Assembly: GCF_051133435.1 (NCBI RefSeq)
Contig: NZ_JBPGNY010000001.1
Span: 294,338 to 318,337, forward strand
Length of the DNA stretch: 24,000 bases
Direction of reading: 5' to 3'
From: Enemella sp. A6
GTDB taxonomy: Bacteria > Actinomycetota > Actinomycetes > Propionibacteriales > Propionibacteriaceae
Of the stretch, positions 2,343-20,688 are shown piece by piece. How positions within the stretch are numbered: position 1 is the first letter of the stretch; every line of letters begins with the position of its first letter. Both the position numbers and the translations under genes were made by a program. Below the pieces are notes generated by a model, which saw only the letters and a program-made list of their open reading frames with translations, was not told the DNA's origin and searched no databases.

Positions 2343-2572
2343 ATTTAGGCCCCTGTGGAGCAACTCGACGGGCCCCCTGGACGAGCCCGGTTTCCCGGTG
2401 ACCGGAGCAGGCGGGAAAACCGCTCTCGACGGGCTCGCCGGAGACCTACAACGCAGCGCGATTGCCCGGCCGGTGATGGTGTTGGCGACGATGTCCGCCC
2501 CGATCTGAAGTGCCCGGCCTCCGACAGTCGGCCGATGAGCCGCCCGTCGCCGAGTACACTGGTTCGTCTGTA

Positions 2573-7000: not shown

Positions 7001-8215
7001 TCAGATGAGCTTGACCGGCTGTCCGTGCACCAGTTCGTCCACGTCCAGACCCAACGCAACGCATGCTCCCCCGGCGATGTCAGCGAGCGTGGCCAGATCT
7101 ACGTCCAAGCTGTGTCCACGGCCGGTGGATGCCGCAAGCACAGGCACATACTCGCGCGTGTGAAAAGCATGCTCAATGCAGGGGTCGTTCCCGTGGTCAG
7201 CAGTCACGACGAGCCCCGCGTCCCCAAGCCCGGGGAGCCATTCACCAACAGCGGCGTCCACCTGTTCGATCAGGGACACATAACGCCCAACATCTTGCTG
7301 ATGGCCGGCCAAATCGGTCTGCTGGACGTTGACCACGCTCAGTCCTGGTTCGCCGATCAGGTCGGTGGTGATGTCCAGCAGCTTTTCTGTTTCCACTCCG
7401 GGGAAGCGCCTCACCTCAGACTCTGTGATCAGGATGTCGGAGGCTTTCCCCACGAGGGTCACCGGCAATCCTGCCCGTGCCGCCACCTCGGGCAGTTGGT
7501 GACGATAGTCGATCTCGGCACCCAGATGGTTCACCTTCAAACCACCCTTGGTGTAGAAACCGGAAGCAGGCGTGTCCAGTCCCACCGTGCCGACTTCACC
7601 TTCGCGCACCGACTCGATCAACGCGTTGTCCGAGTAGCCACCCACGGCAATAACCCGGGCCACCGGGGCGATCGACCTGACGAGTCGCGCGATTCCTTCG
7701 ATCTGGCCCCACTCGAATTCCGATAGCCGACCCGAGACATTCCAGTTCAGACGCGGGTCCGCTTCCAGATTGTCATGAACAAGCACACCGCCGTCGACAA
7801 TCAGCATCCGATTTCCGCAAGCAAGGTCGACGCGATGCCCGGCTCGTAATAGCACCGCTGACAGCTGATCCACGTAGTCCCCCACAGCCGCCAAAGTCAC
7901 TTGGGACATGTCAGCACCCATCATGGTTTGATGCCCGGCGAAGGAGTCCGCGCCGGGATATCCCAAGGCTGCTCGACGGAATGTGGTGGCGGCCGTGATC
8001 GAAGTAGTTGCGAGTTCGAGATCCGGCCGCAGATCACTCAATCCGAGCGCAGCCAGGTGTGGAATGTGCAACTGTTGACCGCGCTCGCTTCGAGACCAGG
8101 CAACAAGCGACCCCAAGGTGTCGGCTCGGGCATCTTCCGGACGCAGTTCTCCGGCATCCGGCATCGCACCGATACCAAACCCATCAATGACCAGGACCAC
8201 CAGTCCGTTCAGCAT
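7001..8215 (-). CDS. yhfW: YhfW-like phosphopentomutase-family metalloenzyme (alkaline-phosphatase superfamily mutase)
   Basis: 404 aa. The N-terminus MLNGLVVLVIDGFGIGAMPDAGELRPEDARADTLG is the DeoB/YhfW type (V.DSFGIGA..DA). The C-terminal metal-site motifs are QQTDLAGHQQD, VVTADHGNDP and HTREYVPVL. An SD-like GAAGGTGA precedes the ATG, which lies 4 nt after the yhfX-like stop. Confidence 0.8.
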   Translation of the reverse strand: MLNGLVVLVIDGFGIGAMPDAGELRPEDARADTLGSLVAWSRSERGQQLHIPHLAALGLSDLRPDLELATTSITAATTFRRAALGYPGADSFAGHQTMMGADMSQVTLAAVGDYVDQLSAVLLRAGHRVDLACGNRMLIVDGGVLVHDNLEADPRLNWNVSGRLSEFEWGQIEGIARLVRSIAPVARVIAVGGYSDNALIESVREGEVGTVGLDTPASGFYTKGGLKVNHLGAEIDYRHQLPEVAARAGLPVTLVGKASDILITESEVRRFPGVETEKLLDITTDLIGEPGLSVVNVQQTDLAGHQQDVGRYVSLIEQVDAAVGEWLPGLGDAGLVVTADHGNDPCIEHAFHTREYVPVLAASTGRGHSLDVDLATLADIAGGACVALGLDVDELVHGQPVKLI

Positions 8216-8219
8216 CCGC

Positions 8220-9368
8220 TCACCTTCCCGACTCGACTACACGACCTTGACCGTCGAACAGGCCGAGCACCTCCGGGTGTCCTGTTGAGATTCCGGAGAC
8301 AACCGCCACCAATGACCGCACCACAAAGAGCTGAGTTCGAAATGCCATCACTGCCGTGGACCCGACCGTTGGACTTGTCCCTGGGCAATCGAACCTGCGG
8401 TAGTAGTCGATGTTCTCCGCGGAGCCCTTGTGCAGGCGCACCAGTTTGCGCTCGGCCTTGTCCACGATCAGAGCTTTCTCGGCATGACCGCGCGGATAGA
8501 ATCCCCCGCCGAAAACCGCTGCCACTGGCGAACCCAGGGCGACCTCGGACACATACACAATGGCCGGCTGCTCGGGCAGTTCGTAGTTCACAGCATGCTC
8601 AGGTGTTGTGCCGGTCAAGGCATGACCGGGTTCGCCGACAGTTGCCCCCAGGGAGGACAACAACTCCAACGACCCGGCGCTGGTGTGACTGGGAAGGTTG
8701 ATCACCGGGTCCTCAAGCACACTGGCAGCGCGTAGCACTCTGTCTGCGGTGGCCGTTGCTCGGGGAACACCACTCGCATCGTCGAAAAGCACACACGGAA
8801 AACCCGTCACGCCCGCAATTCGAATGCCTGGCAGGCCGAGATCCCGCATTCGTTCCACGTCTTCCGGATCGAATCCGCCGTCCTGACCCGGATACAGGTC
8901 TTCGGCAGCAGCAGTGACCCGCAACAGCACGTTCTGGGTGATACCAACCTGCACCGCAGCGTCCGACACAGCGCGCAGGTTCTGCTCATCGATGACCGTC
9001 ACATGTGCCGGGCGATGCGCCAGCACGGTCGGCAATTGGCGAACCGGGATCTGCACAAGATGTCCCACGTTCGCCAGTTGGACGCCGGCGGCCAGGATCG
9101 GAGCAATTTCACGGGTATCGATCACCGCCGCCCTGGGAATGGCCGCGCCGATGGCAGCGTAGACGAGTGGGTTGCGACCGAACTGTTTCCCGACCTGCCA
9201 CAGCTCAACTCCATACCGCTTTCCGGCTTCGGCGATGCTGCGCGCATTCACTGTAATGGCATCCAGATCGAGTAGATACGTGTCCGGCGGTATCTGTCCG
9301 CCGGCGTGGAGTTCAACCGCGGTATCGACCAACGCCGGATTGCGCTGGAGCGTCACATCAAGGAACAT
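8220..9368 (-). CDS. yhfX: YhfX-like fold-type-III PLP enzyme (alanine-racemase N-terminal domain family)
   Basis: I trimmed the 444-aa track ORF to the ATG at 9368, giving 382 aa. The N-terminus is MFLDVTLQRNPALVDTAVELHAGGQIPPDTYLLDLDAI. VGKQFGRNP carries the candidate PLP lysine. GHLVQIP, LYPGQDGGF, GFPCVLFD, EPGHALTGTTP, GGGFYPRGHA and VVSGISTGHPEVLG all match my recollection of E. coli YhfX. The gene overlaps the upstream gene by 11 nt. Confidence 0.8.
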   Translation of the reverse strand: MFLDVTLQRNPALVDTAVELHAGGQIPPDTYLLDLDAITVNARSIAEAGKRYGVELWQVGKQFGRNPLVYAAIGAAIPRAAVIDTREIAPILAAGVQLANVGHLVQIPVRQLPTVLAHRPAHVTVIDEQNLRAVSDAAVQVGITQNVLLRVTAAAEDLYPGQDGGFDPEDVERMRDLGLPGIRIAGVTGFPCVLFDDASGVPRATATADRVLRAASVLEDPVINLPSHTSAGSLELLSSLGATVGEPGHALTGTTPEHAVNYELPEQPAIVYVSEVALGSPVAAVFGGGFYPRGHAEKALIVDKAERKLVRLHKGSAENIDYYRRFDCPGTSPTVGSTAVMAFRTQLFVVRSLVAVVSGISTGHPEVLGLFDGQGRVVESGR

Positions 9369-10461
9369 CGATTTCCCCCTCTGCCCGTTGCAGGATGCGC
9401 ACACACAACTCGGCGTCGGCACGCATGGGATTGATCCGCAAGGTGCGATCACGCAGTTCCGGGTGTGTCTCCAAGTTGCTGCCGGACAGTCGGTAGACCA
9501 TCGGCAGAATTTCGTACCGCGAGTTCGAACCAACCGGATGAGTGGCCGCACCACAGCGCGCAGCTGCTCGCATCAGATCTGGCGCAACCGGGCGATCCAA
9601 CAACGCGATCACACACAGATCTTGAGCATTGGCCAGTTGTGCTTCGACGATTCCCGGCACCTCCCCCGCAGCGAGTCGCTGGGCGAGTTCCACACTCGCC
9701 TGGGCTTGCAGAGCCCAGTTCACCGGCACCATCACGAGCTGCTGTAGGGCCATCAGCGCCTGGTGGCCCTGCACCTGCCCTCCCCCGGAATAGTTGGCCC
9801 GATGGGCACGCTCAATGACGTCCGCGTCGCCGACCACTACCCCGACACCTTCGGGGCCGTGCAGCTTGAACAGCGAGAACGCCGATGCCGAGGCGCCGAG
9901 TTGCGAACCCATCAGCGGAGTTCGATAGACCGCGTAGTTGTCATCGACGATGGTCCGCACCCCCGCAGCCCGAGCTGCCGCAATCACGTCAGCCGGGGAG
10001 TAGGAGTCAGTCAGCCGTTGCCGAGTGTGCTGGAGATACAACCACTGGACGTTGCCGCCGGCCAGTTCTCGGGCCAGGGCCTCGGCGTCGTTGAAGTCGA
10101 CTCTGACCGGTTGGATCGCGGTGTCGTGGAAGGTTGTAGCGGTGGTCGCGTAATCGGCTGCGTCATGAACAATGGGTCGTCGGTCTCCCTCCGACAGCGG
10201 CCCGGCCGAGAGCGCGGTCCGGATCGCACCGGTGCCGGCTCCCTGCACCAAGCAGGCTGCCTCGGCATCGAATGCCATCGCCAATGCGGCTTCAACTCGT
10301 GCCGTTGTGTCCGGCCGGCCCAGCGGTGGGTTGACCCCCACGTCCGTACTGAAGATCGCGTTGCCGGCAAAGTGTTCACTGGCGGCTGCGACCAGCTTCC
10401 GTTGAGCCTCCCGGGCTTGGGACATCGTCGGTATCGGCAATGGCGTGGTGGGCGGAAGCAT
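9358..10461 (-). CDS. yhfS: YhfS-like fold-type-I PLP-dependent enzyme
   Basis: I trimmed the ORF to the ATG at 10461, giving 367 aa. GGAGG lies about 9 nt upstream of it, 4 nt after the php stop. Motifs are CLVQGAGTGAIR, VDDNYAV, FSLFKLHGPEGVGVVVGDADVI (candidate PLP lysine), YSGGGQVQGHQAL and RINPMRADAELCVRIL, matching remembered E. coli YhfS. Confidence 0.8.
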   Translation of the reverse strand: MLPPTTPLPIPTMSQAREAQRKLVAAASEHFAGNAIFSTDVGVNPPLGRPDTTARVEAALAMAFDAEAACLVQGAGTGAIRTALSAGPLSEGDRRPIVHDAADYATTATTFHDTAIQPVRVDFNDAEALARELAGGNVQWLYLQHTRQRLTDSYSPADVIAAARAAGVRTIVDDNYAVYRTPLMGSQLGASASAFSLFKLHGPEGVGVVVGDADVIERAHRANYSGGGQVQGHQALMALQQLVMVPVNWALQAQASVELAQRLAAGEVPGIVEAQLANAQDLCVIALLDRPVAPDLMRAAARCGAATHPVGSNSRYEILPMVYRLSGSNLETHPELRDRTLRINPMRADAELCVRILQRAEGEIDVP

Positions 10462-10465
10462 GGCG

Positions 10466-11386
10466 CTATACCTCCACTCCCGACAACCAGCGCAACGGAT
10501 TACGCCGATAGAGCAGATCCAGTGTGTCGGCATCGACACCCCGCGAACGGAGTTGGGCCTTGAACGCTTGCAATACGTGGCCATACCCGTGTGCGCCATT
10601 CGCGGTCAGGTATCCGAACCGAGAGATGTCGTTGCTGAGCAAGACACGATCGGCATACCCCGCGTCCATCAGCGTGATGATTCGGCTCAGTCTGGCTTCA
10701 TCACTTTCGTAAGAGGCTTTCCCGATGGTGTCGAATGCGACGTAGGCACCTTCACGTGCAATGGACACATGCTGATCGGAGCCGGCCCACAGGTCCTGAT
10801 GCCCAATCGCGACGCGTGCCGGGTCGACGCCTTCGGATAAGAGCAGTTCAAGTTGCCCCAGGCCACCTCGTCCAAGATGTGCGTGCGTAGCAAGCGGGGT
10901 CCCAGTCCGAGCGGATGCTCTGGCCGAGGCACGCAGGCTGATCTCCTCTGCCGGCGAAGGCGCGTCACCATGTGAACCGACCTCACCGATCACGCCTGTC
11001 CGGATACCAGTGTCATCCACACCTTCAGTGATCTCGGCCAAAATCCTCTGTTCGACCGACTCCACGGAACTGATCTCGCCCACGGGGTGGAAGCGTTCGT
11101 AGTAGTAGCCCGTGCCCGCCACGACGGGCACTCCGGTGGCTTCGGAGATGCGTCGGAGTGCCACGACGTCTCGCCCCATCCCACGACAGGACAACTCGAC
11201 GACCAGACCCAAACCGGTTTGTCGTGCCACGTCGGCCAACTCGGGCTGGACTTGTGCGGCGTCGAGGAAGCCCACCGAATCCGTGTCGGTGCGCAAGTCG
11301 ACCACGAGATGCTCATGGGCAAGCACCGGCCCGGTTACTGTCCGAGGGTCGAGCTCCCCAGTTACGGTTTGCAACATTGTTGTCAT
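10466..11386 (-). CDS. php: Phosphotriesterase-homology protein (amidohydrolase superfamily, PTE family)
   Basis: 306 aa. VLAHEHLVVDL is the HxH metal site. Further motifs are AGTGYYY, GVIGEVG, LATHAHLG, VAIGHQDL, VAFDTIGKASYESDEARL, LLSNDISR and GAHGYGHVL. The start is either ATG 11386 (ATGA overlap with the yhfT-like stop) or ATG 11377, which lies 9 nt after GGAGG. Confidence 0.9.
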   Translation of the reverse strand: MTTMLQTVTGELDPRTVTGPVLAHEHLVVDLRTDTDSVGFLDAAQVQPELADVARQTGLGLVVELSCRGMGRDVVALRRISEATGVPVVAGTGYYYERFHPVGEISSVESVEQRILAEITEGVDDTGIRTGVIGEVGSHGDAPSPAEEISLRASARASARTGTPLATHAHLGRGGLGQLELLLSEGVDPARVAIGHQDLWAGSDQHVSIAREGAYVAFDTIGKASYESDEARLSRIITLMDAGYADRVLLSNDISRFGYLTANGAHGYGHVLQAFKAQLRSRGVDADTLDLLYRRNPLRWLSGVEV

Positions 11387-12786
11387 CCTCCGATGGGCGC
11401 GAAGAGCCCCAGTGGCACGAGCAGGTTCAGCAAGATGCCACCCACAATGACCGCTGTCGGTCCTGCAGCCATTCGGACGATCGGCCTACCCAGCGCCTCA
11501 TTGAGGAGGTAGAGGCCGCCCACGATGGCCATCGCGATGCCGCCGCCCATCGCATTGGCCGCCATGATCGAGCCGACCAGAATCGCCAAGCTCAGTGACT
11601 CGGTGATGGCATTACGGATGTGGTCGGCAGAGTCCCGAATTGAGGGCCAGCGCTGGAGCCAACTGCCGAGCGCGGATAGGGCGAAGACTTCCACTGCCAT
11701 GATCGCTGCGCCGGCCACGAAGGCGATACCGAGCGCCAACGGCCAGTTTTCGATCCCGGAACCGATGAGGTAGCCGGCGGAGTAGACGAACGTGAAACCG
11801 GCCATTGCATAGGCGCCGGACGCCAGGGCCGTGGTGGCAATGAGTGGAATGAACCCGAACGCTCGCGGCAAGTCGATCTGCGCTGCTTCGGCGAACTTGC
11901 CGTCAGCGACCATGAAGCTGGTTGCCTCCCCACCAGCGAAGATCCCCGATGCGGCCAACATCGCGACTGCCCCACCGAGAATCGCGAACCACACCACGTT
12001 CTTGCGCAGCCGCGCTGCGTTCGGACCAAAGAGCTGGTCAACCACTTCTGCTTCGGCCCGCTTGGACTCGGCGATTTGTTCTTGCTCTTCGGCAGAAAGC
12101 TTCGCGTGTTCGAGTTTCTCGGACTTCTTGGCTGCCAAGTCTCTTGCCAACGCGAACGCAACGAGCATGATGACACCGACGGCCATCGCGATCGCGCCGC
12201 CGAACACATCGGGCCAGACCTTGGCCATGACCAGCACAGTCACGACCTCCAACACGAACGTGACGACACCCTTCAACCTGCCGAACTGGCGCGCGACGGC
12301 GATCACGGGGAAGATGGCGAACAGCCACAGGATGGGACCTGAAATCTGTTGCAAGGCGGTGACGAAGTCGACCGGCAACTGATGAGCCAAGTTGTTGGCA
12401 GCGGCGAGACCGTAGGCACATACGGCTCCCCATGCGCCACCCGCGATCAGAGCTGCCCACCACCAAGGAGCGAGCAGACCCAGGATCTCCACCGGCAGGA
12501 AGATCAGCCAAGGGTTCAGCACACCCGTTGACAGGGCCATCGGGGCGCCGAGGCCGAAAATGAAGCCGGCACTCAGACCGAACACGATGGTCGCCGTAGC
12601 ACCTCGCGAAGACCGCCCCTGGATGAAATCCAGCATGAAGGGACGGGCACCGTCGTTGAACACGGCAAGCGCCTTATGTGCGATGAGGGCGGCAAAAGCC
12701 GAGACCGCAATGACGAGAAACGATTGCCACGTCGCGAAGTGGATACCCACCTCAGGCGTGGTTTCCAGAACTACTGAGTGAAGCAT
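11383..12786 (-). CDS. yhfT: YhfT-like polytopic inner-membrane protein (putative permease)
   Basis: I trimmed the 505-aa track ORF to the ATG at 12786, giving 467 aa. It begins MLHSVVLETTPEVGIHFATWQSFLVIAVSAF. Many hydrophobic spans are present, and a central highly charged loop reads AAKKSEKLEHAKLSAEEQEQIAESKRAEAEVVDQ. Its position directly after the DUF2620/YhfU-like gene matches the E. coli yhfU-yhfT pair. Confidence 0.7.
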   Translation of the reverse strand: MLHSVVLETTPEVGIHFATWQSFLVIAVSAFAALIAHKALAVFNDGARPFMLDFIQGRSSRGATATIVFGLSAGFIFGLGAPMALSTGVLNPWLIFLPVEILGLLAPWWWAALIAGGAWGAVCAYGLAAANNLAHQLPVDFVTALQQISGPILWLFAIFPVIAVARQFGRLKGVVTFVLEVVTVLVMAKVWPDVFGGAIAMAVGVIMLVAFALARDLAAKKSEKLEHAKLSAEEQEQIAESKRAEAEVVDQLFGPNAARLRKNVVWFAILGGAVAMLAASGIFAGGEATSFMVADGKFAEAAQIDLPRAFGFIPLIATTALASGAYAMAGFTFVYSAGYLIGSGIENWPLALGIAFVAGAAIMAVEVFALSALGSWLQRWPSIRDSADHIRNAITESLSLAILVGSIMAANAMGGGIAMAIVGGLYLLNEALGRPIVRMAAGPTAVIVGGILLNLLVPLGLFAPIGG

Positions 12787-12805
12787 GGGGCCATACCTTT
12801 CTGGT

Positions 12806-13162
12806 TCATGCCCGAGAAGATGCGATCTCGGACCAGAGCACCGGGACGACGTCCTGGATCTGGTCCATGGCGAAGCCGAAAGCGACCTTGCCGCTGGCAA
12901 CTTCCTTGGCGATCACCTCACGGGGCGGCACGGTGCGCCCGAAAGTGTGAGTCTTGGCTCCCCCGAGGAGCCCGAGGAGGACACCGAGGCTTGCGCCGGC
13001 CCCGGTGTGACAGGTACCGAAGTAGTAGTCGATAGCACCGGAGCGAAGTTTCATCGCGGCATCCATGTCGGTGCCAATGATGACTTCGTCGTCGGGGCCA
13101 ACCAGCTTCTTCAGCGCATCGGCAACTTCTGCCTTGGCAACGCCACCAGTCATGATTTTCAT
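12806..13162 (-). CDS. yhfU: YhfU-like small protein (DUF2620 family)
   Basis: 118 aa. AAGGAG lies about 5 nt upstream of the ATG, which forms an ATGA overlap with the yhfY-like stop. MKIMTGGVAKAEV...IIGTDMDAAMKLRSGAIDYYFGTCHTGAGASLGVLLG...ASGKVAFGF closely parallels remembered E. coli YhfU (..NDMEAAMKVKSGQLDYYIGACNTGAGAALS..EGKVAFGL). Confidence 0.8.
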   Translation of the reverse strand: MKIMTGGVAKAEVADALKKLVGPDDEVIIGTDMDAAMKLRSGAIDYYFGTCHTGAGASLGVLLGLLGGAKTHTFGRTVPPREVIAKEVASGKVAFGFAMDQIQDVVPVLWSEIASSRA

Positions 13163-13539
13163 CGGTTCTCCTTACGGTGTGCGACATACAAGGTCGCGAG
13201 GTGGATGGTGAGGAAGTCGATTTCTCCCTTGGGGAGGGTGAGGCCCAGTTCGGCGGCTGCCCGGTCGGCGATTGCCCGGGCCCGGGCGGGGGAACTCGGG
13301 CTGGCGGTGCGGGCTTCGGCGACGTGAGCCACGTTGGGTTCGCCCACCGATGTGTCCCCGGTCCGAACTCGCTCCAGGGCAGCCATGAGATGCGCAGCGA
13401 ACATGCCGGCCGTCTGCTCGGTAACCACATACTCCGAGTCGAGCTCCGCGAGCAGCTGCGACACGAAGGCCACGATCTCGGGCGTCGCCATCCCCGTTTC
13501 GGCCGTGATTCTGAGCCTGTCTTCCAGCAGTTGGTCCAT
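13159..13539 (-). CDS. yhfY: YhfY-like PRD-domain-type small regulatory protein
   Basis: 126 aa. AGGAA lies 5 nt upstream of the ATG, 9 nt after the yhfZ-like stop. The sequence looks all-helical (MDQLLEDRLRITAETGMATPEIVAFVSQLLAELD...AAHLMAALERVRTG...TIHLATLY). Size and operon position match E. coli YhfY. The sequence evidence itself is weaker than for the neighbouring genes. Confidence 0.6.
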   Translation of the reverse strand: MDQLLEDRLRITAETGMATPEIVAFVSQLLAELDSEYVVTEQTAGMFAAHLMAALERVRTGDTSVGEPNVAHVAEARTASPSSPARARAIADRAAAELGLTLPKGEIDFLTIHLATLYVAHRKENR

Positions 13540-13547
13540 CGGGGTTC

Positions 13548-14468
13548 CTAATAGGTTGGGGGGCGCTTTCCAGCAAGCACCTCAGCGAATACGGTCATCG
13601 CGAGTGGCGAATCAATGGCCCGCCGAACCGGCCACGGAATCACGTTCGAGTGGTGGTGCACCAGAACGGCATTGGTGTTCCCTTCGATCTCGGGAAGCGG
13701 ATAAATGTCGATGGGCACCCGCAGATGGTCGGAGACTTCATCGAGATTCCAGACAGTGGCGTCGATCAGGCCGGAGTCGAAGTGACCTGCAAGTTGGTGG
13801 TAAGAGACATCGACCAACCGCTCGTCGTCCAAGTCGGGGAAGTAGCGTGCAGTCAGGGTCACCTGGTCGGTCGATTTGGAGTCGACCCCCACTCGCAGCG
13901 TCGGATCGTGACGATCCCTGCCCCGAGTAATGATCAAGCCGTGACTGCCGACGTACGTGTTGGGCCCGAAGTCCCGGATCGTGTTGAGCTCGGAGCTTTC
14001 TGCAGCAAGGCGTGACATGAGTGCGAAGTCGGTGTGCCCATCCATGACCGAACGGGCTCGTTCCGTGGATCCACGCTGGAACATGAGCGACAGCGGGATG
14101 CCTGCGTCGGCGAAGCTCGCCTGCAGTGCCGACGCCATCGCCTCGTAGCGCAGGGAGTACGGCATCGGTGTACCGATCGATATCGAGCGTCCACCACTGG
14201 CTTCCCACAGAAGCGGGTAATCCAGTGCCTCGATGAACGTGCCCAATCGGCCACGAGGTTTCAGTTGGACTGCACCCAAATCGGTCAACTGTGTCAGCGC
14301 ACCCTGAATCGTTCCGTTCGAAGCTTCCAGTTCGGCTGCAACTTGCTTCACTGCCGGCAGTCGTTCGCCGACACGCATCGTGGACAGCAAGGCAGCAAGA
14401 CGGACGGCAATGCGTCCCTCTTTGGACATGAACTGCTCTTGGAGTCCCACGATCGAAAGAATATCCAC
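13548..14468 (-). CDS. yhfZ: YhfZ-like transcriptional regulator (N-terminal winged HTH plus a YhfZ C-terminal, binding-protein-like domain)
   Basis: 306 aa from GTG 14468. Alternative starts are GTG 14450 and ATG 14429. The HTH is RLPAVKQVAAELEASNGTIQGALTQLTDLGAV. The C-terminal part has binding-protein-like character. It is the first gene of the operon, as in E. coli. Confidence 0.7.
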   Translation of the reverse strand: MDILSIVGLQEQFMSKEGRIAVRLAALLSTMRVGERLPAVKQVAAELEASNGTIQGALTQLTDLGAVQLKPRGRLGTFIEALDYPLLWEASGGRSISIGTPMPYSLRYEAMASALQASFADAGIPLSLMFQRGSTERARSVMDGHTDFALMSRLAAESSELNTIRDFGPNTYVGSHGLIITRGRDRHDPTLRVGVDSKSTDQVTLTARYFPDLDDERLVDVSYHQLAGHFDSGLIDATVWNLDEVSDHLRVPIDIYPLPEIEGNTNAVLVHHHSNVIPWPVRRAIDSPLAMTVFAEVLAGKRPPTY

Positions 14469-14644
14469 TATTTCGGATATTTACAAGACCTCGACACCTG
14501 CGATGTTCAGCCGGTATGCGCCGACAGCGGAGATGCCCACCACGGGAATCGGAAGGCAGCCTGAAACGACTTTGCCCACGGGGGAGGATCCCGGTGGGGC
14601 GAAATGTGCGGCCGGGTGTGATGTGCTGAACTCCGGAACAGGCC

Positions 14645-14677
14645 GAAGGGCCGGCCATCGTGAGTGGCCGGCCCTTC
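14645..14677 (-). terminator. Perfect 13-bp-stem hairpin downstream of the VOC gene
   Basis: GAAGGGCCGGCCA-tcgtgag-TGGCCGGCCCTTC lies 34 nt past the VOC stop on the minus strand. There is no U-tract, which is common in Actinobacteria. The hairpin would also insulate the yhfZ promoter region from read-through. Confidence 0.65.
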
Positions 14678-14710
14678 TAGATCGAGCATGGTGGACGGGG
14701 TACGTGCAGG

Positions 14711-15079
14711 TCAGTCCACCGGGGAGACCCGAATGAGGTTGCCGTCGGGGTCGGCGATCACGAACGTGCGGCCGAAGACATCGTCGTGAGGCTCCTCCAC
14801 GACGTGGACTCCTTTCGAGACCCAGCTCGTGAAGGTCTCATCAACTGCGGATACCGGCCCCGGCACCATGAGCCCGACCTCGCACGTGCGAGGGGTGCTC
14901 GGGTCCGCGTGCTCGCTTCGTCCTGTCCACAGCGCGAACAGAACGCCGGGGGCCACCTCGAAAGCCACGTAACGGGGACTGATGAAGGCCGGTGTGATTT
15001 CGAACAGGTCGCTGTAGAAAGCCGTGGCGTTCTCAGCATCGCGGACGTAGACCAGGAACAGGTTGGGTGCGGGCATCAA
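14711..15079 (-). CDS. VOC-family protein (glyoxalase / bleomycin-resistance / dioxygenase fold)
   Basis: 122 aa. The pattern LFLVYVRDAENATAFYSDLFEI...FEV...FALW...GRTFVIADPDGNLIRV is typical of single-domain VOC proteins. Confidence 0.8.
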   Translation of the reverse strand: MMPAPNLFLVYVRDAENATAFYSDLFEITPAFISPRYVAFEVAPGVLFALWTGRSEHADPSTPRTCEVGLMVPGPVSAVDETFTSWVSKGVHVVEEPHDDVFGRTFVIADPDGNLIRVSPVD

Positions 15080-15170
15080 GCACTCCTCGGGTTGTTGGGT
15101 TCTCTTACCGCACCAGTTGACCGTCCAATCACGACAAGACCTGTCACCTTTTCTGCGAAAGTTGGTCAGT

Positions 15171-16136
15171 ATGAAGGCGTCGAGACTGCTGCACCTCTTG
15201 CTGCTCCTGCAGACACGTCAGCGCATCACCACTACCGAACTCGCCGGCCGCCTGGAGGTGTCCAGGCGGACTGTGCTGCGGGATGTCGAGGCGCTGTCGA
15301 CAGCAGGTGTGCCTGTATATGCCGAACGGGGACGGAGCGGTGGGATCGTCCTGCTCCCCGGTGCACGGCTCAACGCATCCCATCTGGATCCTCGGGAACT
15401 GGAAGCCCTCTCGGTTGCCGGTCTGGACGACGCACAACTTGAGAGTCTGGGACTGTCTGCGGTGCGTGAGTCGGCCGCACGCAAGATCGCTGCCCGCCAG
15501 AACGCAGCGGTCGAGTCCCCGAGCCTGCCACGCCTGTCGGACCTGGTCCTGGTGGACAGCAATGCGTGGCTCGCCGACCCGAACGCGGAAGTGGACGTAG
15601 CGGATCTGGCAGCAGTGCTGCGACACCGACGCCGGATGCGCATCCAGTACCGGCGCAGCGCCGAGGGTCGGGCCTCGGTGCTGGTCGTTGACCCGTACGG
15701 GATCGTCGCGAAATCGGGCCGCTGGTACCTCATCGCCGATCACCAGGGAGCCGGCCGGCTGTTTGCTCTGGAACGGCTCTCGGCCTACGAGACACTCGAG
15801 GCTCCGGTTGCCCTCCGTCCGGGTCAGACCCTCCGCACCATGTGGGCGGCGCTGAAGGAACGCACCGAGACGCCCGGTCGCGTCAGCGTGACCGTCCGTC
15901 TCCGAGAAAACCGCCTCGATCTGGCACGGCGCATCCTCGGCGCCCGCATCCACGAAATCTCCGACAGGGAGAACGGCTGGTGCTCGGTCGTCATCCGCTA
16001 CCCCAGCATCGAGTCAGTGCGTCAGCTCCTCCAGTTCGGTGACCACATCGAGATATTGACCCCACCCACAGCCCGCGAACGCGTCAGGCTGCTCGCCAGG
16101 GATCTCGCCGACAGGCACTCGCGTCCCGCCGGATAG
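15171..16136 (+). CDS. YafY-family transcriptional regulator (N-terminal HTH plus WYL domain)
   Basis: I trimmed the ORF to the ATG at 15171, giving 321 aa. The HTH region is MKASRLLHLLLLLQTRQRITTTELAGRLEVSRRTVLRDVEALSTAGVPVYAERGRSGGIVLL. The WYL-domain core is MRIQYRR...VVDPYGIVAKSGRWYLIADH. The gene is divergent from the VOC gene. Confidence 0.85.
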   Translation: MKASRLLHLLLLLQTRQRITTTELAGRLEVSRRTVLRDVEALSTAGVPVYAERGRSGGIVLLPGARLNASHLDPRELEALSVAGLDDAQLESLGLSAVRESAARKIAARQNAAVESPSLPRLSDLVLVDSNAWLADPNAEVDVADLAAVLRHRRRMRIQYRRSAEGRASVLVVDPYGIVAKSGRWYLIADHQGAGRLFALERLSAYETLEAPVALRPGQTLRTMWAALKERTETPGRVSVTVRLRENRLDLARRILGARIHEISDRENGWCSVVIRYPSIESVRQLLQFGDHIEILTPPTARERVRLLARDLADRHSRPAG

Positions 16137-16192: not shown

Positions 16193-16894
16193 TCAGTTGC
16201 GGTTACCGCCCCGGAAGAAGTACCCCTCCATCGCCGGGTCGGCGTCCCAGGCGGCGTCGATCCGCTCCCGAATCGCCCGGGCGGCGTCCTCGAAGCCGGC
16301 CGCATCGCGGATCTCGGAGCCGACCACGATCCGGCGGGCACCGGCGGCCAGAACCTGATCGACGTCCTGCAGGCTGGTGCCACCGGTGGCGAACCAGGGC
16401 TTGGTCTCCGCCGCCCCGGGGGGCGCGAGGTCGGCCATCGTCCGCACCAGGTCGGGGGCGGTGGCGGTCGGATGTTCCGGGCCGATGGTGATGAAGTCGA
16501 CCAGGTCGTCGGCGATCGCGGCACGGGCCTGCTGGTCGGTGTGGGCCCCCCGGCCCACCAGAGCCCACTTGTGCAGGATCTTCTTCGCCTCGGCCGGAGT
16601 GGTGTCGTTCTCGTCCAGATGCAGCAGGTCGGCGGTGAAGGCCTCGGCCAGCCCCGGATCGTCCTGCACCACGACCAGCCCTTGGGTCCGGTAGCTCAGG
16701 GTGCGCAGCAGGGCGAGCTGTTCGAGGGCTTCCACGCGGCTGAGGTTCTCGTCGCGAAAGCCGATCATGTCGACCCCCGCACCGAAGGCGGCATCGGCGA
16801 AGGGGCCCAGATCATCGGAGGCAACCCGAGCATCGGTGATCAGGTAGAGCTTGGCGCCGTAGAGCCGCTGGCGCAATCCGAACAGAACGGTCAT
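16193..16894 (-). CDS. thiE: Thiamine-phosphate synthase family protein (ThiE-like)
   Basis: I trimmed the ORF to the ATG at 16894, giving 233 aa. KLYLITDA, VDMIGFRDE, VVVQDDPGLA...ADLLHLDEND, VGRGAHT, VDFITIGP, PWFATGG and AGARRIVVGSEI align motif by motif with ThiE (QFREK, VNDD..ADGIHIGQED, GVSAHT, DYVGLGP, VGIGG). Several normally conserved positions differ (see findings). Confidence 0.65.
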   Translation of the reverse strand: MTVLFGLRQRLYGAKLYLITDARVASDDLGPFADAAFGAGVDMIGFRDENLSRVEALEQLALLRTLSYRTQGLVVVQDDPGLAEAFTADLLHLDENDTTPAEAKKILHKWALVGRGAHTDQQARAAIADDLVDFITIGPEHPTATAPDLVRTMADLAPPGAAETKPWFATGGTSLQDVDQVLAAGARRIVVGSEIRDAAGFEDAARAIRERIDAAWDADPAMEGYFFRGGNRN

Positions 16895-17046
16895 GGCCGC
16901 AACTTTACTGACCGGCACCGACAAGTACCGAAGACCCCAGTTCGACGCCACGCCGACCGCTAGCTCACCGGAATGCCCCAAGCCTCCCTACACTCGACAG
17001 CAGGCCAACACGGCCCACTTCCCCAGACCGTGTATGGAGCAGATTC

Positions 17047-19056: not shown

Positions 19057-19112
19057 CCCGGGCTGTTCGCCCCACCGGGCACTACCGTGATCGCCATATC
19101 TGGGAGGTACCG

Positions 19113-20384
19113 GTGTTGGAGTTTCTGCTGATCGGCCTTGCGCTGCTGGTGCTGGCGTTGCTGGTCGTACCGGTGACCGTACTGGCGGTTCGGGCCGGCA
19201 TCCGCCGCCGCTATGTCGCGTCCCTGACCTCGCGTGGCTGGACGTTTCTGGACGACCCGGCCATGTGGGAGGTCGCGATGCTGCACTGCCCGCCCTTCGG
19301 CCGACAATTCGACCGGCAAGTCGACGACCTCACCCGCGGCCGCACCTCGGACGGCTACTGGTTCCAGGCGTTCGACTACCGCACCACCGAGTTCGACAAC
19401 CGGGTGCTGACGATTCGGCTGCCCCGGGCCCTGCCCGAGTTGTACGTGTTGGCCGGCGGCCGGCCCCGTCCGGGGGTGGAGGCACCGAGGATCGAGGGCT
19501 TCGCTCCCCTGCTGGTCAACTGCGAGGACGAGCGCTACGCCCGGGCGGTGCTCACCGAGCCGGTGATGTCGGCGATCTTCGCCTACGGGCAGCACCATCC
19601 GCTCGACCTGAGCATCGACGGCAACCACCTGGTCGCGGTCAGTGTCTCGGAGGATCCCGATCTGCTGGCCCGAGCCGTCGATGCCCTCGCAGCGGTGGCC
19701 CGCGCGATCGACGAGCGGGTCTTCACCGAGTGGGCGCGCCCCGAACCCGAACGTGGCCACACCTTCCACCGACGTCCCGACTGGGATTACCTGGGCCAAC
19801 ACGACGCCCTGCTGAACACCGTGGAGGTCACCCGGGCCGGGCAGCGGCACCGCACCGAGGAAGTGGTCACCAGCCGCAACGACGGGTTGCCGTTCGTCGC
19901 CTTCCGGCACCACTGGGTAACGACCCACACCACCACGTACACCGACAGCCAGGGCAATACCCAAACCCAGACCCACACCCAACACCATGTCGAGCATGTG
20001 ATGGAGTTCGCGCTGCCGTTCCGCAGCCCGCGGTTGGCGGTGTCCTACGACCGCACCAAGTTCATCAACGGCTGGATCACCGGCCTGCGCGAGATCGACT
20101 TCGAGCACGCCGACTTCAACCGGATCTTCGACATCCGGTGTGTGTCGCACAAGTTCGCCTACGACGTGGTGCATCCGCGCCAGATGGAATACCTGGCCCG
20201 CACCCAGCCCCCACCCTTCGTCTGGGGTGACGGACGGGCCCTGTTCCGGCTCGAGGCCTACAACCAGGAAACCATCGAGTGGATCTGTGATTTCTTCGCC
20301 GGGTTCATCTCGCGGGTGCCCAGTTTCGTCTGGAAGGACCTCCACGCCGCACCCCCGGTGCCCCTGACCGCACAAGGTCGATAA
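19113..20384 (+). CDS. Hypothetical membrane-anchored protein built from two tandem copies of one module (possibly DUF3137-like)
   Basis: 423 aa from GTG 19113, with GGGAGG 5 nt upstream. The N-terminal TM helix is LEFLLIGLALLVLALLVVPVTVLAV. Third codon positions are strongly G/C in this frame, and residue composition is balanced (W, F, Y, D, E). The 554-aa ORF on the opposite strand is Gly/Val/Arg/Pro-biased and overlaps the recognisable csbD-like gene. Confidence 0.7.
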   Translation: MLEFLLIGLALLVLALLVVPVTVLAVRAGIRRRYVASLTSRGWTFLDDPAMWEVAMLHCPPFGRQFDRQVDDLTRGRTSDGYWFQAFDYRTTEFDNRVLTIRLPRALPELYVLAGGRPRPGVEAPRIEGFAPLLVNCEDERYARAVLTEPVMSAIFAYGQHHPLDLSIDGNHLVAVSVSEDPDLLARAVDALAAVARAIDERVFTEWARPEPERGHTFHRRPDWDYLGQHDALLNTVEVTRAGQRHRTEEVVTSRNDGLPFVAFRHHWVTTHTTTYTDSQGNTQTQTHTQHHVEHVMEFALPFRSPRLAVSYDRTKFINGWITGLREIDFEHADFNRIFDIRCVSHKFAYDVVHPRQMEYLARTQPPPFVWGDGRALFRLEAYNQETIEWICDFFAGFISRVPSFVWKDLHAAPPVPLTAQGR

Positions 20385-20477
20385 AGAGACCGAAAGGGTG
20401 TTGTCCCCGGCATCCGGCCCCCATAGGTTGGAGATGAGCACACTTCGGTGCTCAAGAGACGCAGTGGAGGGATGAGT

Positions 20478-20663
20478 ATGGGTATCGGAGACAAGATTTC
20501 GAACAAGGCCGAGGAGATTGGCGGCAAGCTCAAGGAAGGCGTCGGTGACGCCACCGACAACGAGCGTCTCGAGACCGAGGGCAAGGGTGACCAGGCCTCC
20601 GGCCGCACCAAGCAGGCGGGCGAGAACATCAAGGACGCCGCCAAGAACATCACCGGCAACTGA
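20478..20663 (+). CDS. csbD: CsbD-family small stress-response protein
   Basis: 61 aa from ATG 20478, with GGAGG 7 nt upstream. MGIGDKISNKAEEIGGKLKEGVGDATDNERLETEGKGDQASGRTKQAGENIKDAAKNITGN shows the typical CsbD K..E..GK.KE..G.....L..EGK.DQ..GK.Q......KDA pattern. Confidence 0.85.
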   Translation: MGIGDKISNKAEEIGGKLKEGVGDATDNERLETEGKGDQASGRTKQAGENIKDAAKNITGN

Positions 20664-20688
20664 CCGGAAAACCACCACCAACGAACAC

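What the first reader, a model, noticed from the sequence alone, without database searches (positions are those of the whole stretch)
7001..14468. A complete eight-gene yhfZ-yhfY-yhfU-yhfT-php-yhfS-yhfX-yhfW operon, an uncharacterised pathway, in an actinobacterium
All eight members of the E. coli yhfZYXW-php-yhfUTS cluster are recognisable here on one strand. They are a regulator (YhfZ-like), a PRD-type protein (YhfY-like), a DUF2620 protein (YhfU-like) and a polytopic membrane protein (YhfT-like). They also include the phosphotriesterase-homology protein Php, a fold-type-I PLP enzyme (YhfS-like), an alanine-racemase-fold PLP enzyme (YhfX-like) and a phosphopentomutase-family enzyme (YhfW-like). 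The junctions are very tight: ATGA overlaps at 13159-13162 and 11383-11386, an 11-nt overlap at 9358-9368, and gaps of 4-19 nt elsewhere. This argues for one co-translated unit. The transcription order here is Z-Y-U-T-php-S-X-W. As I recall it, the E. coli order is Z-Y-X-W-php-U-T-S. Gene content is therefore conserved across phyla while gene order is shuffled, which is a strong sign of a functional module. To my knowledge no substrate or physiological role has been established for Php or any of its partners. The enzyme set is a hydrolase of esters, lactones or phosphoesters, a phosphomutase or phosphatase, and two PLP enzymes. Together with the transporter it suggests uptake and breakdown of a phosphorylated or esterified amino compound, such as an amino-sugar or amino-acid conjugate. 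That suggestion is inference only.
Basis: partly seen in the sequence, partly recalled or inferred. Interest (0 to 1): 0.75.

Follow-up and report, generated by a model that had tools for sequence, protein, structure and literature searches.

The report
Conserved yhf operon, function still unknown
This is an intact copy, probably acquired by horizontal transfer, of the eight-gene yhfZ-yhfY-yhfU-yhfT-php-yhfS-yhfX-yhfW operon in Enemella sp. A6; the operon is widespread in bacteria, already annotated, and its substrate is still unknown.

Summary
Eight contiguous minus-strand genes at 7001-14468 match the YhfZ, PRD, DUF2620, YhfT, PTE, YhfS, YhfX and YhfW families. Seven are full-length reciprocal best hits of the E. 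coli K-12 proteins; YhfY matches only by profile.

The window comes from Enemella sp. A6 (Propionibacteriaceae). The gene order is not special to it. It is the same in 69 of 80 actinobacterial loci and in Clostridium, and it is kept with one inserted gene in Fusobacteriota, Spirochaetota and Caloramator. The E. coli order is probably the derived one.

In this genome the operon lies in a low-GC island (0.62 against 0.68), which suggests recent transfer.

New leads:
- YhfU has an RpiB/LacAB-like predicted fold and an invariant C-x-T-G-x-G motif.
- YhfT has no solved-structure analogue and belongs to a very small family.
- In one spirochaete, ptsH and ptsI directly follow yhfW.
- Several lineages carry an extra amidase-like gene.

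No paper found assigns a function. The most likely role is inducible uptake and breakdown of a phosphorylated amino compound. That is inference. It is a new member of a known but uncharacterised cluster, of moderate interest.

The parts
13548..14468 (-). yhfZ: GntR-type HTH fused to a YhfZ_C sensor domain; presumed regulator of the operon. The start codon is ambiguous (GTG 14468 or ATG 14429).
   Evidence: Pfam HTH_41 + YhfZ_C, E 3e-45. NF041241 YhfZ_full scores 249.6 bits, just under its cut-off of 260. Reciprocal best hit of E. coli YhfZ, 32% identity. The C-terminal domain matches PDB 2OZZ, E 1e-26.
13159..13539 (-). yhfY: stand-alone PRD-domain protein of 126 aa, with invariant R8, H50, R57 and E106.
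   Evidence: Pfam PRD 23.3 bits against a cut-off of 23. The profile hits LicT PRD at E 1.5e-8 and GlcT at 5e-6. The actinobacterial profile hits E. coli YhfY at 18.1 bits. Invariant residues across phyla.
12806..13162 (-). yhfU: DUF2620 protein of 118 aa with an RpiB/LacAB-like predicted fold and the invariant motif G-x-C51-x-T53-G-x-G.
   Evidence: Pfam DUF2620, E 7e-37. AlphaFold2 model pLDDT 92.9. The top Foldseek PDB hits are RpiB and LacAB structures (5ifz, 3he8, 4lfk, 1o1x), TM 0.61-0.67. hhalign places C51 and T53 on RpiB C66 and T68, weakly (E 0.084). The motif is invariant in five phyla.
11383..12786 (-). yhfT: polytopic membrane protein of 467 aa; presumed permease.
   Evidence: Pfam YhfT 452 bits. 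100% identical to 'YhfT family protein [Enemella sp. A6]'. The AlphaFold2 model is all-helical, pLDDT 77.6. No PDB fold match, TM below 0.2. Only 249 representatives at 50% identity among 1.84 billion proteins.
10466..11386 (-). php: binuclear-metal amidohydrolase of the phosphotriesterase family.
   Evidence: Pfam PTE 210 bits. 39% identical reciprocal best hit of E. coli Php. PDB 1BF6 and 4LEF at E 1e-54. H24, H26, E135, H168, H196 and D253 are at least 97% conserved; these are the positions I recall as the E. coli Php metal ligands.
9358..10461 (-). yhfS: fold-type-I PLP enzyme; K187 and D161 are invariant (inferred PLP lysine and cofactor-binding Asp).
   Evidence: Pfam YhfS-like_C + Aminotran_5. 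45% identical reciprocal best hit. PDB 4J8L. By profile, the nearest characterised relatives are methionine gamma-lyase / CGS-family enzymes and cysteine desulfurases. Invariant residues.
8220..9368 (-). yhfX: fold-type-III (alanine-racemase fold) PLP enzyme; K61 is invariant (inferred PLP lysine).
   Evidence: Pfam Ala_racemase_N + YhfX-like_C. 38% identical reciprocal best hit. PDB 4KBX. By profile, the nearest characterised relatives are D-threonine aldolase, D-3-hydroxyaspartate aldolase and dehydratase, and alanine racemase. Invariant residues.
7001..8215 (-). yhfW: metal-dependent phosphomutase or phosphatase of the phosphopentomutase family, in a subfamily distinct from DeoB.
   Evidence: NF009049 (PRK12383) 342 bits, above its cut-off of 254. 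The true DeoB models score far below theirs: 112.7 against 256, and 83.9 against 341. PDB phosphopentomutases match at E 1e-15 over the C-terminal part only. D11, D90, D301, H305, D340, H341 and H352 are at least 97% conserved. Residue 91 is Ser here and Thr in E. coli, at the position I take to be the nucleophile.
14469..14644 (-). Presumed promoter and operator region of the operon. It includes an AT-rich stretch (TTGTAAATATCCGAAATA) directly 5' of position 14468.
   Evidence: Read directly from the sequence. It lies between the upstream hairpin and yhfZ. The sigma-70 scan found no site there, so this is inferred.
14645..14677 (-). GC-rich hairpin with a 13-bp stem, 33 nt after the stop of the upstream glyoxalase-family gene; it marks the 5' limit of the operon.
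   Evidence: Exact palindromic match. MFE -32.5 kcal/mol for the 86-nt segment that contains it. There is no T-run, so a terminator function is inferred.

Best explanation
The locus is an intact copy of the conserved yhf module in Enemella sp. A6. It was probably acquired by horizontal transfer.

Shown here: eight tightly packed genes in the order Z-Y-U-T-php-S-X-W, orthologous to E. coli yhfZ, yhfY, yhfU, yhfT, php, yhfS, yhfX and yhfW. The positions expected to be catalytic or cofactor-binding are conserved.

Inferred: the module is a substrate-inducible catabolic operon.
- YhfZ (GntR-type HTH plus a ligand-binding domain) senses the substrate or an intermediate. The stand-alone PRD protein YhfY adds control by phosphorylation through its invariant His50.
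- YhfT imports the compound. YhfU, an RpiB/LacAB-like protein with a conserved Cys-x-Thr motif, either isomerises a sugar-phosphate moiety or acts as the soluble partner of YhfT.
- Php opens a lactone, ester or cyclic bond.
- YhfW moves or removes a phosphate.
- YhfX (relatives act on D-amino acids or are racemases and aldolases) and YhfS (gamma-lyase / desulfurase-like) process an alpha-amino-acid moiety.

The cluster encodes no kinase. The phosphate must therefore already be on the imported compound, or be added during uptake by a PTS-type phosphorelay.

The most likely substrate class is a phosphorylated sugar or sugar acid that carries an amino-acid function. In some lineages it may be amide-linked. 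The compound itself is unknown.
For: Orthology and integrity.

Conservation as a module:
- 463 species genomes encode a YhfT relative.
- 69 of 80 actinobacterial loci carry all eight genes in this order.
- Clostridium has the same order, and Fusobacteriota, Spirochaetota and Caloramator keep it with one inserted gene.
- No other conserved neighbour was found in Actinomycetota.

Link to phospho-sugar chemistry:
- YhfW belongs to the phosphopentomutase family.
- Php has a weak match to the phospho-furanose lactonase model NF045706 (64.6 bits, far below its cut-off of 630).
- YhfU has an RpiB/LacAB-like fold and a C-x-T-G-x-G motif.

Link to amino-acid chemistry:
- YhfX is nearest to D-threonine aldolase, D-3-hydroxyaspartate aldolase and dehydratase, and alanine racemase.
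- YhfS is nearest to methionine gamma-lyase and cysteine desulfurase.
- The putative PLP lysines are invariant.

Link to the PTS:
- A PRD protein is found in nearly every cluster sampled, with an invariant His.
- ptsH starts at the yhfW stop, followed by ptsI, in Alkalispirochaeta americana.
- PTS genes lie next to the cluster in Brachyspira and Streptobacillus.

Accessory hydrolases: an amidase-signature-like gene or a beta-lactamase-family gene is inserted in several lineages.

Horizontal transfer:
- Cluster GC is 0.619 against 0.681 in the flanks.
- GC3 is 0.67-0.79 against 0.86-0.89 in the flanking genes.
- In 76 other actinobacterial loci the cluster-minus-flank GC difference is +0.010 +/- 0.013.
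Against: - No substrate, inducer or phenotype is known. Nothing here tests activity or transcription.
- The RpiB-like assignment of YhfU rests on borderline scores: Foldseek E 1e-3, hhalign E 0.084, HMM E 0.23.
- YhfT is called a permease only because it is polytopic and sits in this context. It resembles no solved transporter.
- The PTS link is strong in one genome only. No HPr or Enzyme I gene lies within 10 kb in the window or in the 80 actinobacterial loci.
- The B. thuringiensis plasmid copy appears to lack Z and W and sits next to ATP-grasp ligase genes. That would fit a biosynthetic setting better.
- The Vibrio copy lacks YhfS within the cluster, so not all eight genes are obligatory.
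- The low-GC island has no tRNA, integrase or boundary repeats.
Confidence: 0.55

Rival explanations
1. YhfT and YhfU form a previously unrecognised PTS-type permease. HPr and Enzyme I pass phosphate, directly or through YhfY His50 or YhfU Cys51, to the substrate during uptake. This variant would explain why the cluster has no kinase yet encodes a phosphomutase.
For: - ptsH and ptsI are fused to the 3' end of the cluster in Alkalispirochaeta.
- A PRD protein with an invariant His is found in nearly every cluster sampled.
- YhfU has an invariant Cys and always sits beside YhfT.
- PTS operons lie next to the cluster in Brachyspira and Streptobacillus.
Against: - No protein of the cluster matches a Pfam EIIA, EIIB or EIIC family.
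- The YhfT model matches no solved structure, PTS EIIC or otherwise.
- The Cys of YhfU follows strand 3, as in RpiB. In cysteine-type EIIB proteins it follows strand 1 (from memory).
- No PTS gene lies near the 80 actinobacterial loci or in the window.
Confidence: 0.2
2. The module is biosynthetic, or modifies and exports a compound such as an unusual amino acid or antimetabolite, rather than being catabolic.
For: In the B. thuringiensis plasmid the Y-U-T-php-S-X block is followed by three genes that are annotated as ATP-grasp or match ATP-grasp families, one of them with a weak match to an L-amino-acid-ligase C-terminal domain. PLP enzymes and racemase-like enzymes are common in such pathways.
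Against: - A GntR-type regulator with a ligand-binding domain, a permease, and hydrolase, mutase and lyase enzymes make a typical catabolic layout.
- In Streptomyces the cluster is flanked by what look like housekeeping genes (for example proS, ffh, glnD, amtB; identified from ORF translations, no family search run). In Clostridium it is flanked by genes with housekeeping-type Pfam domains. No biosynthetic genes lie beside it.
- It is widespread in gut and soil heterotrophs across five phyla.
Confidence: 0.08
3. The module salvages or repairs a small phosphorylated hydroxy- or amino-acid metabolite. One candidate class is four-carbon phospho-acids related to vitamin B6 precursors.
For: - Overexpressing E. 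coli php rescues a delta-pdxB strain.
- It does so without 4-phosphoerythronate dehydrogenase activity.
- The genetics place its effect at or before 2-oxo-3-hydroxy-4-phosphobutanoate (PMC3010111).
- YhfX relatives act on beta-hydroxy-D-amino acids.
Against: The suppression needs multicopy expression, and its authors attribute it to a promiscuous (serendipitous) activity. A dedicated permease and an inducible regulator argue for an external substrate. No other gene of the cluster appeared in that screen.
Confidence: 0.07
4. The copy in this genome is a recently transferred passenger that is silent or decaying.
For: It lies in a low-GC island. The E. coli cluster has no known inducing condition (from memory).
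Against: All eight reading frames are intact, with no internal stops. The positions expected to be catalytic are conserved. Translational coupling and Shine-Dalgarno-like sequences are preserved.
Confidence: 0.05

Closest known systems
E. coli K-12 yhfZ-yhfY-yhfX-yhfW-php-yhfU-yhfT-yhfS cluster (b3376-b3383)
   Same: The same eight protein families on one strand. Seven are reciprocal best hits at 32-45% identity, and YhfY matches by profile. The residues at the positions expected to be catalytic are the same. The function is equally unknown.
   Different: The gene order here is Z-Y-U-T-php-S-X-W, against Z-Y-X-W-php-U-T-S in E. coli. The host belongs to another phylum and has a high-GC genome. 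There is no neighbouring frl operon. The copy lies in a low-GC island.
Actinobacterial, clostridial, fusobacterial and spirochaetal yhf clusters (for example Aeromicrobium, Streptomyces, Clostridium sp. MSJ-4, Cetobacterium somerae)
   Same: The order Z-Y-U-T-php-S-X-W is identical in Actinomycetota and Clostridium, and it is kept with one inserted gene in Cetobacterium and other lineages. Overall amino-acid identity to the closest actinobacterial loci reaches 59%.
   Different: Several non-actinobacterial clusters carry a ninth gene. It is amidase-signature-like and lies between yhfT and php, or belongs to the beta-lactamase family and lies between php and yhfS. One cluster carries ptsH-ptsI at its end. 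The window has none of these.
Phospho-sugar lactonases of the phosphotriesterase family (NCBIfam NF045706; Lmo2620 and MS53_0025 type, from memory)
   Same: The same amidohydrolase fold and binuclear metal site. They act on phosphorylated furanose lactones, which would fit the mutase-like and isomerase-like partners in this cluster.
   Different: The window Php scores only 64.6 bits against a cut-off of 630 for that model. It belongs to the E. coli Php subfamily, which has no known substrate.
RpiB/LacAB sugar-phosphate isomerases
   Same: YhfU has a similar predicted fold, TM 0.61-0.67. Its C-x-T-G-x-G motif aligns with the catalytic Cys66 and Thr68 of E. coli RpiB (the catalytic roles are from memory).
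   Different: YhfU is about 30 residues shorter. It lacks the N-terminal Asp-His motif and the C-terminal Arg residues of RpiB (from memory). Sequence similarity is not significant. It is always paired with the membrane protein YhfT.
PTS carbohydrate uptake systems with PRD-containing regulators
   Same: A PRD domain with a conserved His. A membrane protein paired with a small soluble Cys-containing protein. ptsH-ptsI attached to the cluster in one genome.
   Different: No EIIA, EIIB or EIIC family match. The PRD protein has no RNA-binding or DNA-binding domain. There is no structural similarity to any solved structure, PTS EIIC or otherwise.

Membership tests
yhf cluster (E. coli yhfZYXW-php-yhfUTS type) | All eight protein families present, contiguous and on one strand | tested here: met
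   Pfam and NCBIfam assignments; coordinates and junctions.
yhf cluster (E. coli yhfZYXW-php-yhfUTS type) | Each protein is the reciprocal best hit of its E. coli K-12 counterpart | tested here: met
   Seven of eight by BLASTP in both directions. YhfY only by profile: 18.1 bits, specific to E. coli YhfY.
yhf cluster (E. coli yhfZYXW-php-yhfUTS type) | Scores above NCBI's equivalog cut-offs for YhfZ (NF041241) and Php (NF007373) | tested here: not met
   YhfZ 249.6 bits against 260; Php 209.3 against 486. These cut-offs appear tuned to close (enterobacterial) relatives. Synteny and reciprocal best hits still support orthology.
yhf cluster (E. coli yhfZYXW-php-yhfUTS type) | Same gene order as E. 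coli | tested here: not met
   Z-Y-U-T-php-S-X-W here, against Z-Y-X-W-php-U-T-S in E. coli. The order here is the common one across phyla.
Phosphotriesterase / amidohydrolase family (Php) | Binuclear metal ligands: two N-terminal His, a bridging Glu in the Php subfamily, two further His and an Asp | tested here: met
   H24, H26, E135, H168, H196 and D253 are at least 97% conserved and align with E. coli H12, H14, E125, H158, H186 and D243. The ligand roles are from memory of PDB 1BF6.
Phosphotriesterase / amidohydrolase family (Php) | Hydrolytic activity on a defined substrate | not testable with these tools
   This needs an enzyme assay. No physiological substrate was found in the papers searched.
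Phosphopentomutase (DeoB) equivalog | Score above the cut-offs of the DeoB models (NF003766, TIGR01696) | tested here: not met
   112.7 bits against 256, and 83.9 against 341. Only the YhfW-type model NF009049 passes. The name 'phosphopentomutase' given by that model is therefore probably an over-annotation.
Phosphopentomutase / alkaline-phosphatase superfamily | Metal-binding Asp and His residues and a Ser or Thr nucleophile | tested here: met
   D11, D301, H305, D340, H341 and H352 are conserved. D90-S91 here corresponds to D-T in E. coli. The roles are inferred from phosphopentomutase structures, from memory.
PRD domain proteins | Match to the PRD profile, and a conserved phosphorylatable His | tested here: met
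   Pfam 23.3 bits against 23. The profile hits LicT PRD at E 1.5e-8. H50 is invariant across phyla. The second His (H113) is kept in most clusters sampled but is Asn in E. coli, Vibrio, Cetobacterium and Brachyspira.
PRD domain proteins | Phosphorylation by HPr or EIIB | not testable with these tools
   This needs an in vitro phosphotransfer assay.
PTS Enzyme II permease | Recognisable EIIC, EIIB or EIIA domains | tested here: not met
   No PTS family match for any of the eight proteins. The YhfT model matches no solved structure, TM below 0.2.
RpiB/LacAB isomerase family (for YhfU) | Significant sequence or profile match to the family | tested here: not met
   hhalign E 0.084, 26 columns only. 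Best PDB profile hits at E 0.23 and 1.7. Pfam assigns only DUF2620.
RpiB/LacAB isomerase family (for YhfU) | Fold similarity, with the catalytic Cys-x-Thr motif in the equivalent place | tested here: inconclusive
   [not shown]
Fold-type III PLP enzymes (YhfX) and fold-type I PLP enzymes (YhfS) | Family match and a conserved Schiff-base lysine | tested here: met
   Pfam. PDB 4KBX and 4J8L. K61 in YhfX and K187 in YhfS are invariant. Their identity as the Schiff-base lysine is inferred from motif position.

The most novel reading that the evidence does not exclude
The yhf module encodes a new kind of uptake system fed by the phosphotransferase phosphorelay. The orphan-fold membrane protein YhfT and the RpiB-like Cys protein YhfU would replace the classical Enzyme II. 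The stand-alone PRD protein YhfY would be the phosphorylation-sensing switch. The system would deliver a phosphorylated amino-acid-sugar (or sugar-acid) conjugate to Php, YhfW, YhfX and YhfS.
Probability: 0.15. Interest if true: 0.8.

Novelty: new member of a known kind. Interest (0 to 1): 0.4.

Why it matters
The yhf cluster is one of the larger blocks of E. coli genes that still lack a function. Crystal structures of four of its proteins have been deposited (Php 1BF6 and 4LEF, YhfX 4KBX, YhfS 4J8L, YhfZ 2OZZ), all under uncharacterised names. No substrate has been assigned in the papers I could search.

This window adds one more host and does not solve the problem. The comparison it prompted narrows the search in six ways:
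- The module is self-contained. The core is Y-U-T-php-S-X, usually with Z and W.
- It spans at least five phyla.
- It has a consensus gene order.
- It encodes no kinase.
- It is linked to PTS genes in some genomes.
- Some lineages add an amidase-like or beta-lactamase-family hydrolase.

These points give concrete experiments: ligand screening of YhfZ, phosphotransfer to YhfY and YhfU, and isomerase assays of YhfU. If YhfT and YhfU proved to be a new transporter type, that would be of wider interest.

Tried and rejected
- **Exact-sequence look-ups.** Looking up the window's Php and YhfT on assembled contigs found nothing on record. The source organism was identified instead from 100%-identical NCBI proteins.
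- **RNA and regulatory elements.**
  - Rfam found no RNA family in the window.
  - The promoter and terminator scan found nothing above chance inside the operon.
- **Signs of a mobile element.** There is no tRNA gene and there are no convincing boundary repeats around the low-GC island.
- **Conserved extra neighbours.** None was found in 80 actinobacterial loci. The Streptomyces flanks look like housekeeping genes.
- **PTS genes near the actinobacterial loci.** tblastn found no HPr or Enzyme I gene in those loci or in the window.
- **Plasmid carriage.**
  - Six records in the plasmid collection matched.
  - Three of them are E. coli records of chromosome size.
  - The other three are large non-mobilizable plasmids.
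  - The module is therefore not typically plasmid-borne.
- **Fold of YhfT.**
  - It gave no fold match in the PDB by Foldseek.
- **Literature.**
  - Searches on all gene names, DUF2620, 'phosphotriesterase homology protein', COG3457 and Lmo2620 found no functional assignment.
  - The only physiological datum found is multicopy suppression of delta-pdxB by php.
- **Alternative ORF.** I rejected the overlapping 306-aa minus-strand ORF at 13738-14658 as an alternative to yhfZ. It is in another frame, and the YhfZ family matches were obtained in the 13548-14468 frame. I ran no family search on the alternative frame itself.

Full report
**1. Observation**

The minus strand of 7001-14468 carries eight consecutive ORFs. 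Pfam and NCBIfam assign them as follows, in order of transcription:
- YhfZ: HTH_41 + YhfZ_C.
- A PRD protein.
- DUF2620.
- YhfT: PF10797, 452 bits.
- PTE family.
- YhfS-like: Aminotran_5 + YhfS-like_C.
- YhfX-like: Ala_racemase_N + YhfX-like_C.
- A Metalloenzyme-family protein that passes the YhfW-type model NF009049 (342 bits, cut-off 254).

I fetched the E. coli K-12 locus, whose annotated order is yhfZ-Y-X-W-php-U-T-S on one strand. BLASTP in both directions makes seven proteins full-length reciprocal best hits at 32-45% identity.

YhfY is the exception:
- It has no pairwise similarity to E. coli YhfY.
- A profile of 73 actinobacterial homologues picks out E. coli YhfY and nothing else.
- A cross-phylum YhfY profile hits the PRD domains of LicT and GlcT.

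Shine-Dalgarno-like sequences precede seven of the eight starts. The only uncertainty is the yhfZ start, GTG 14468 or ATG 14429.

**2. Source and surroundings**

YhfT and DUF2620 are 100% identical to proteins of Enemella sp. A6, family Propionibacteriaceae, phylum Actinomycetota.

Flanking genes:
- On one side: a methylenetetrahydrofolate reductase gene and a polyprenyl synthase gene. The polyprenyl synthase gene converges on yhfW with 28 nt between the two stop codons.
- On the other side, in order:
  - a glyoxalase-family gene
  - a WYL-domain regulator
  - a TMP-TENI (thiamine-phosphate-synthase-like) gene
  - a PASTA Ser/Thr kinase
  - a class-II DAHP synthase
  - a two-component pair

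A 13-bp GC-rich hairpin at 14645-14677 follows the glyoxalase-family gene and precedes yhfZ. No promoter-like or terminator-like site above chance lies inside the operon, and there is no Rfam match. A single transcription unit is therefore well supported by spacing, but it is still inferred.

**3. Composition**

- The eight genes have GC 0.59-0.66 and GC3 0.67-0.79.
- The core genes on either side have GC3 0.86-0.89.
- The glyoxalase-family and WYL genes are intermediate.
- In 76 other actinobacterial loci the cluster is on average 1.0 +/- 1.3 points richer in GC than its flanks. The -6.2 points seen here is a clear outlier.
- The nearest sampled clusters reach only about 59% overall amino-acid identity, and they are all actinobacterial.

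I read this as a fairly recent acquisition of a roughly 9-kb island (7001 to about 16136) from an actinobacterial donor of lower GC. No tRNA, integrase or boundary repeat marks the island.

**4. Distribution and gene order**

A scan of one genome per species found 463 genomes that encode a YhfT relative. The 80 best are all Actinomycetota, and most are Streptomyces. In 69 of those 80 all eight genes are present in the order Z-Y-U-T-php-S-X-W. The remaining loci lack one or more genes in the census: some contigs end near the cluster, and in five only YhfY falls below the detection threshold. No further conserved neighbour gene exists.

Outside the phylum:

| Organism | Order |
|---|---|
| Brachyspira aalborgi | Y-U-T-[extra gene]-php-S-X-W |
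| B. thuringiensis plasmid | Y-U-T-php-S-X |

The window therefore shows the consensus arrangement across phyla, and the E. coli order is probably derived. The blocks Z-Y, U-T and X-W stay together wherever both of their genes are present.

The YhfT family is small. It has 249 representatives at 50% identity among 1.84 billion proteins.

**5. Accessory genes elsewhere**

- Four non-actinobacterial clusters carry a ninth gene between yhfT and php. The four proteins are 36-52% identical to one another.
- They contain the motifs GSSSGTA and DGGGSV, which resemble the amidase signature (the signature is from memory). They give weak amidase hits.
- Streptobacillus instead has a beta-lactamase-family (PF00144) gene between php and yhfS.
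- In Alkalispirochaeta, ptsH begins at the stop codon of yhfW and ptsI follows.
- In Brachyspira a complete PTS operon, a PRD/EIIA regulator and HPr lie immediately upstream.
- None of these genes lies within 10 kb of the actinobacterial clusters or in the window.

**6. The individual proteins**

The positions expected to be catalytic are conserved in about 80 homologues plus E. coli:
- Php: H24, H26, E135, H168, H196, D253.
- YhfW: D11, D90-S91 (Thr in E. coli), D301, H305, D340, H341, H352.
- YhfX: K61.
- YhfS: K187 and D161.

YhfW fails the DeoB equivalog models, so the product name 'phosphopentomutase' carried by its NCBIfam model is probably too specific.

By profile, the nearest characterised relatives of YhfX are D-threonine aldolase, D-3-hydroxyaspartate aldolase and dehydratase, and alanine racemase. 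Those of YhfS are methionine gamma-lyase / CGS-family enzymes and cysteine desulfurases. YhfS may therefore be a lyase rather than an aminotransferase.

YhfU:
- It models with high confidence, pLDDT 92.9.
- Its best structural neighbours are RpiB and LacAB sugar-phosphate isomerases, TM 0.61-0.67.
- hhalign puts its invariant C51-x-T53-G-x-G on the C66-G-T68-G-x-G of E. coli RpiB.
- That motif is invariant in five phyla.
- All of these scores are borderline, so I treat the relationship as a lead.

YhfT models as an all-helical membrane protein, pLDDT 77.6. It has no Foldseek match in the PDB.

YhfY keeps R8, H50, R57 and E106 across phyla.

**7. Mechanism**

Shown: orthology, integrity, tight coupling of the genes, and conservation as a module.

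Inferred: an inducible catabolic operon. Three proteins point to phospho-sugar chemistry:
- YhfW is phosphopentomutase-like.
- YhfU is RpiB-like.
- Php has a weak match (far below cut-off) to the phospho-furanose lactonase model.

Two PLP enzymes point to an alpha-amino-acid moiety, possibly of D configuration. The optional amidase-like or beta-lactamase-family hydrolases point to an amide-linked form of the substrate in some lineages.

There is no kinase. The substrate must therefore arrive already phosphorylated or be phosphorylated during uptake. The PRD protein found in nearly every cluster sampled, and the ptsH-ptsI fusion in one spirochaete, make a PTS-fed route a serious possibility. 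No classical Enzyme II domain is present, however.

I put the general catabolic reading at about 0.55 and the PTS-type variant at about 0.2. The biosynthetic, salvage and silent-passenger readings are each below 0.1.

**8. Literature**

- Full-text searches on every gene name and family name found no functional assignment.
- Php is called a protein of unknown function in the study that found it as a multicopy suppressor of delta-pdxB (PMC3010111).
- A January 2026 paper lists YhfW among uncharacterised or less-studied genes and calls it a putative mutase (PMC12924614).
- A March 2025 paper calls YhfZ a putative transcription factor (PMC12147183).
- The PDB entries 1BF6, 4LEF, 4KBX, 4J8L and 2OZZ carry uncharacterised names.
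- The library does not cover most subscription journals, so a missed paper cannot be excluded.

**9. Verdict**

- The finding is real and correctly interpreted.
- It is one more member of a known, already annotated and widespread cluster whose function is unknown. Its presence in an actinobacterium is the rule for this cluster type, not an exception.
- Its value lies in the comparative leads listed above.
- Interest is 0.4, and novelty is 'new member of a known kind'.

Noticed in passing
window 7001-16136: A low-GC island. GC is 0.59-0.66 and GC3 0.67-0.80, against GC3 0.86-0.89 in the flanking core genes. It covers the operon plus a glyoxalase-family gene (14711-15079, minus strand) and a WYL-domain regulator (15063-16136, plus strand). 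In 76 other actinobacterial loci the cluster is not poorer in GC than its flanks. This suggests recent horizontal acquisition. No tRNA, integrase or boundary repeats were found.
   Followed up: partly
L088 8702-10601 (Alkalispirochaeta americana): ptsH (HPr) starts at the stop codon of yhfW (TAATG), and ptsI (Enzyme I) follows. The general PTS proteins appear to be part of the yhf operon in this spirochaete.
   Followed up: partly
L083 10279-11310; L086 10299-11333; L088 3238-4296; L090 10364-11494: A ninth conserved gene (343-376 aa) lies between yhfT and php in Cetobacterium, Brachyspira, Alkalispirochaeta and Caloramator. The four proteins are 36-52% identical to one another and carry the amidase-signature-like motifs GSSSGTA and DGGGSV. 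The gene is absent from the actinobacterial and E. coli clusters.
   Followed up: partly
L089 9371-10591 (Streptobacillus felis): A beta-lactamase-family (PF00144) gene is inserted between php and yhfS. It is a different accessory hydrolase from the amidase-like gene, in a different slot.
   Followed up: no
[not shown]
   Followed up: partly
window 7001-8215 (YhfW): The NCBIfam model that this protein passes (NF009049) is named 'phosphopentomutase'. The genuine DeoB models score far below their cut-offs: 112.7 against 256, and 83.9 against 341. The product name is therefore probably an over-annotation.
   Followed up: yes
L084 14136-18696 (B. thuringiensis plasmid): A Y-U-T-php-S-X block with no Z or W detected is followed by three genes that are annotated as ATP-grasp or match ATP-grasp families. 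One of them has a weak match to an L-amino-acid-ligase C-terminal domain. This context could be biosynthetic. The PLSDB gene table is incomplete.
   Followed up: no
window 14429-14468: The yhfZ start codon is ambiguous. GTG 14468 has no Shine-Dalgarno sequence and lies just after an AT-rich stretch (TTGTAAATATCCGAAATA) that looks like a -10 or operator element. ATG 14429 would give a protein of 293 aa.
   Followed up: partly
window 366-2300 (-), 2345-3304 (-), 16893-17843 (+), 19044-20708 (-): Long ORFs in the flanks have no Pfam match at E 0.001. Some may be spurious frames in high-GC DNA. For example, 19113-20384 (plus strand) has a weak DUF3137 hit opposite the 19044-20708 ORF.
   Followed up: no
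L085 4065-4955 (Vibrio halioticoli plasmid): A DUF7916 gene and a porin-like gene lie directly upstream of the Vibrio yhf cluster. That cluster has the order Z-Y-php-U-T-X-W and no detectable yhfS.
   Followed up: no
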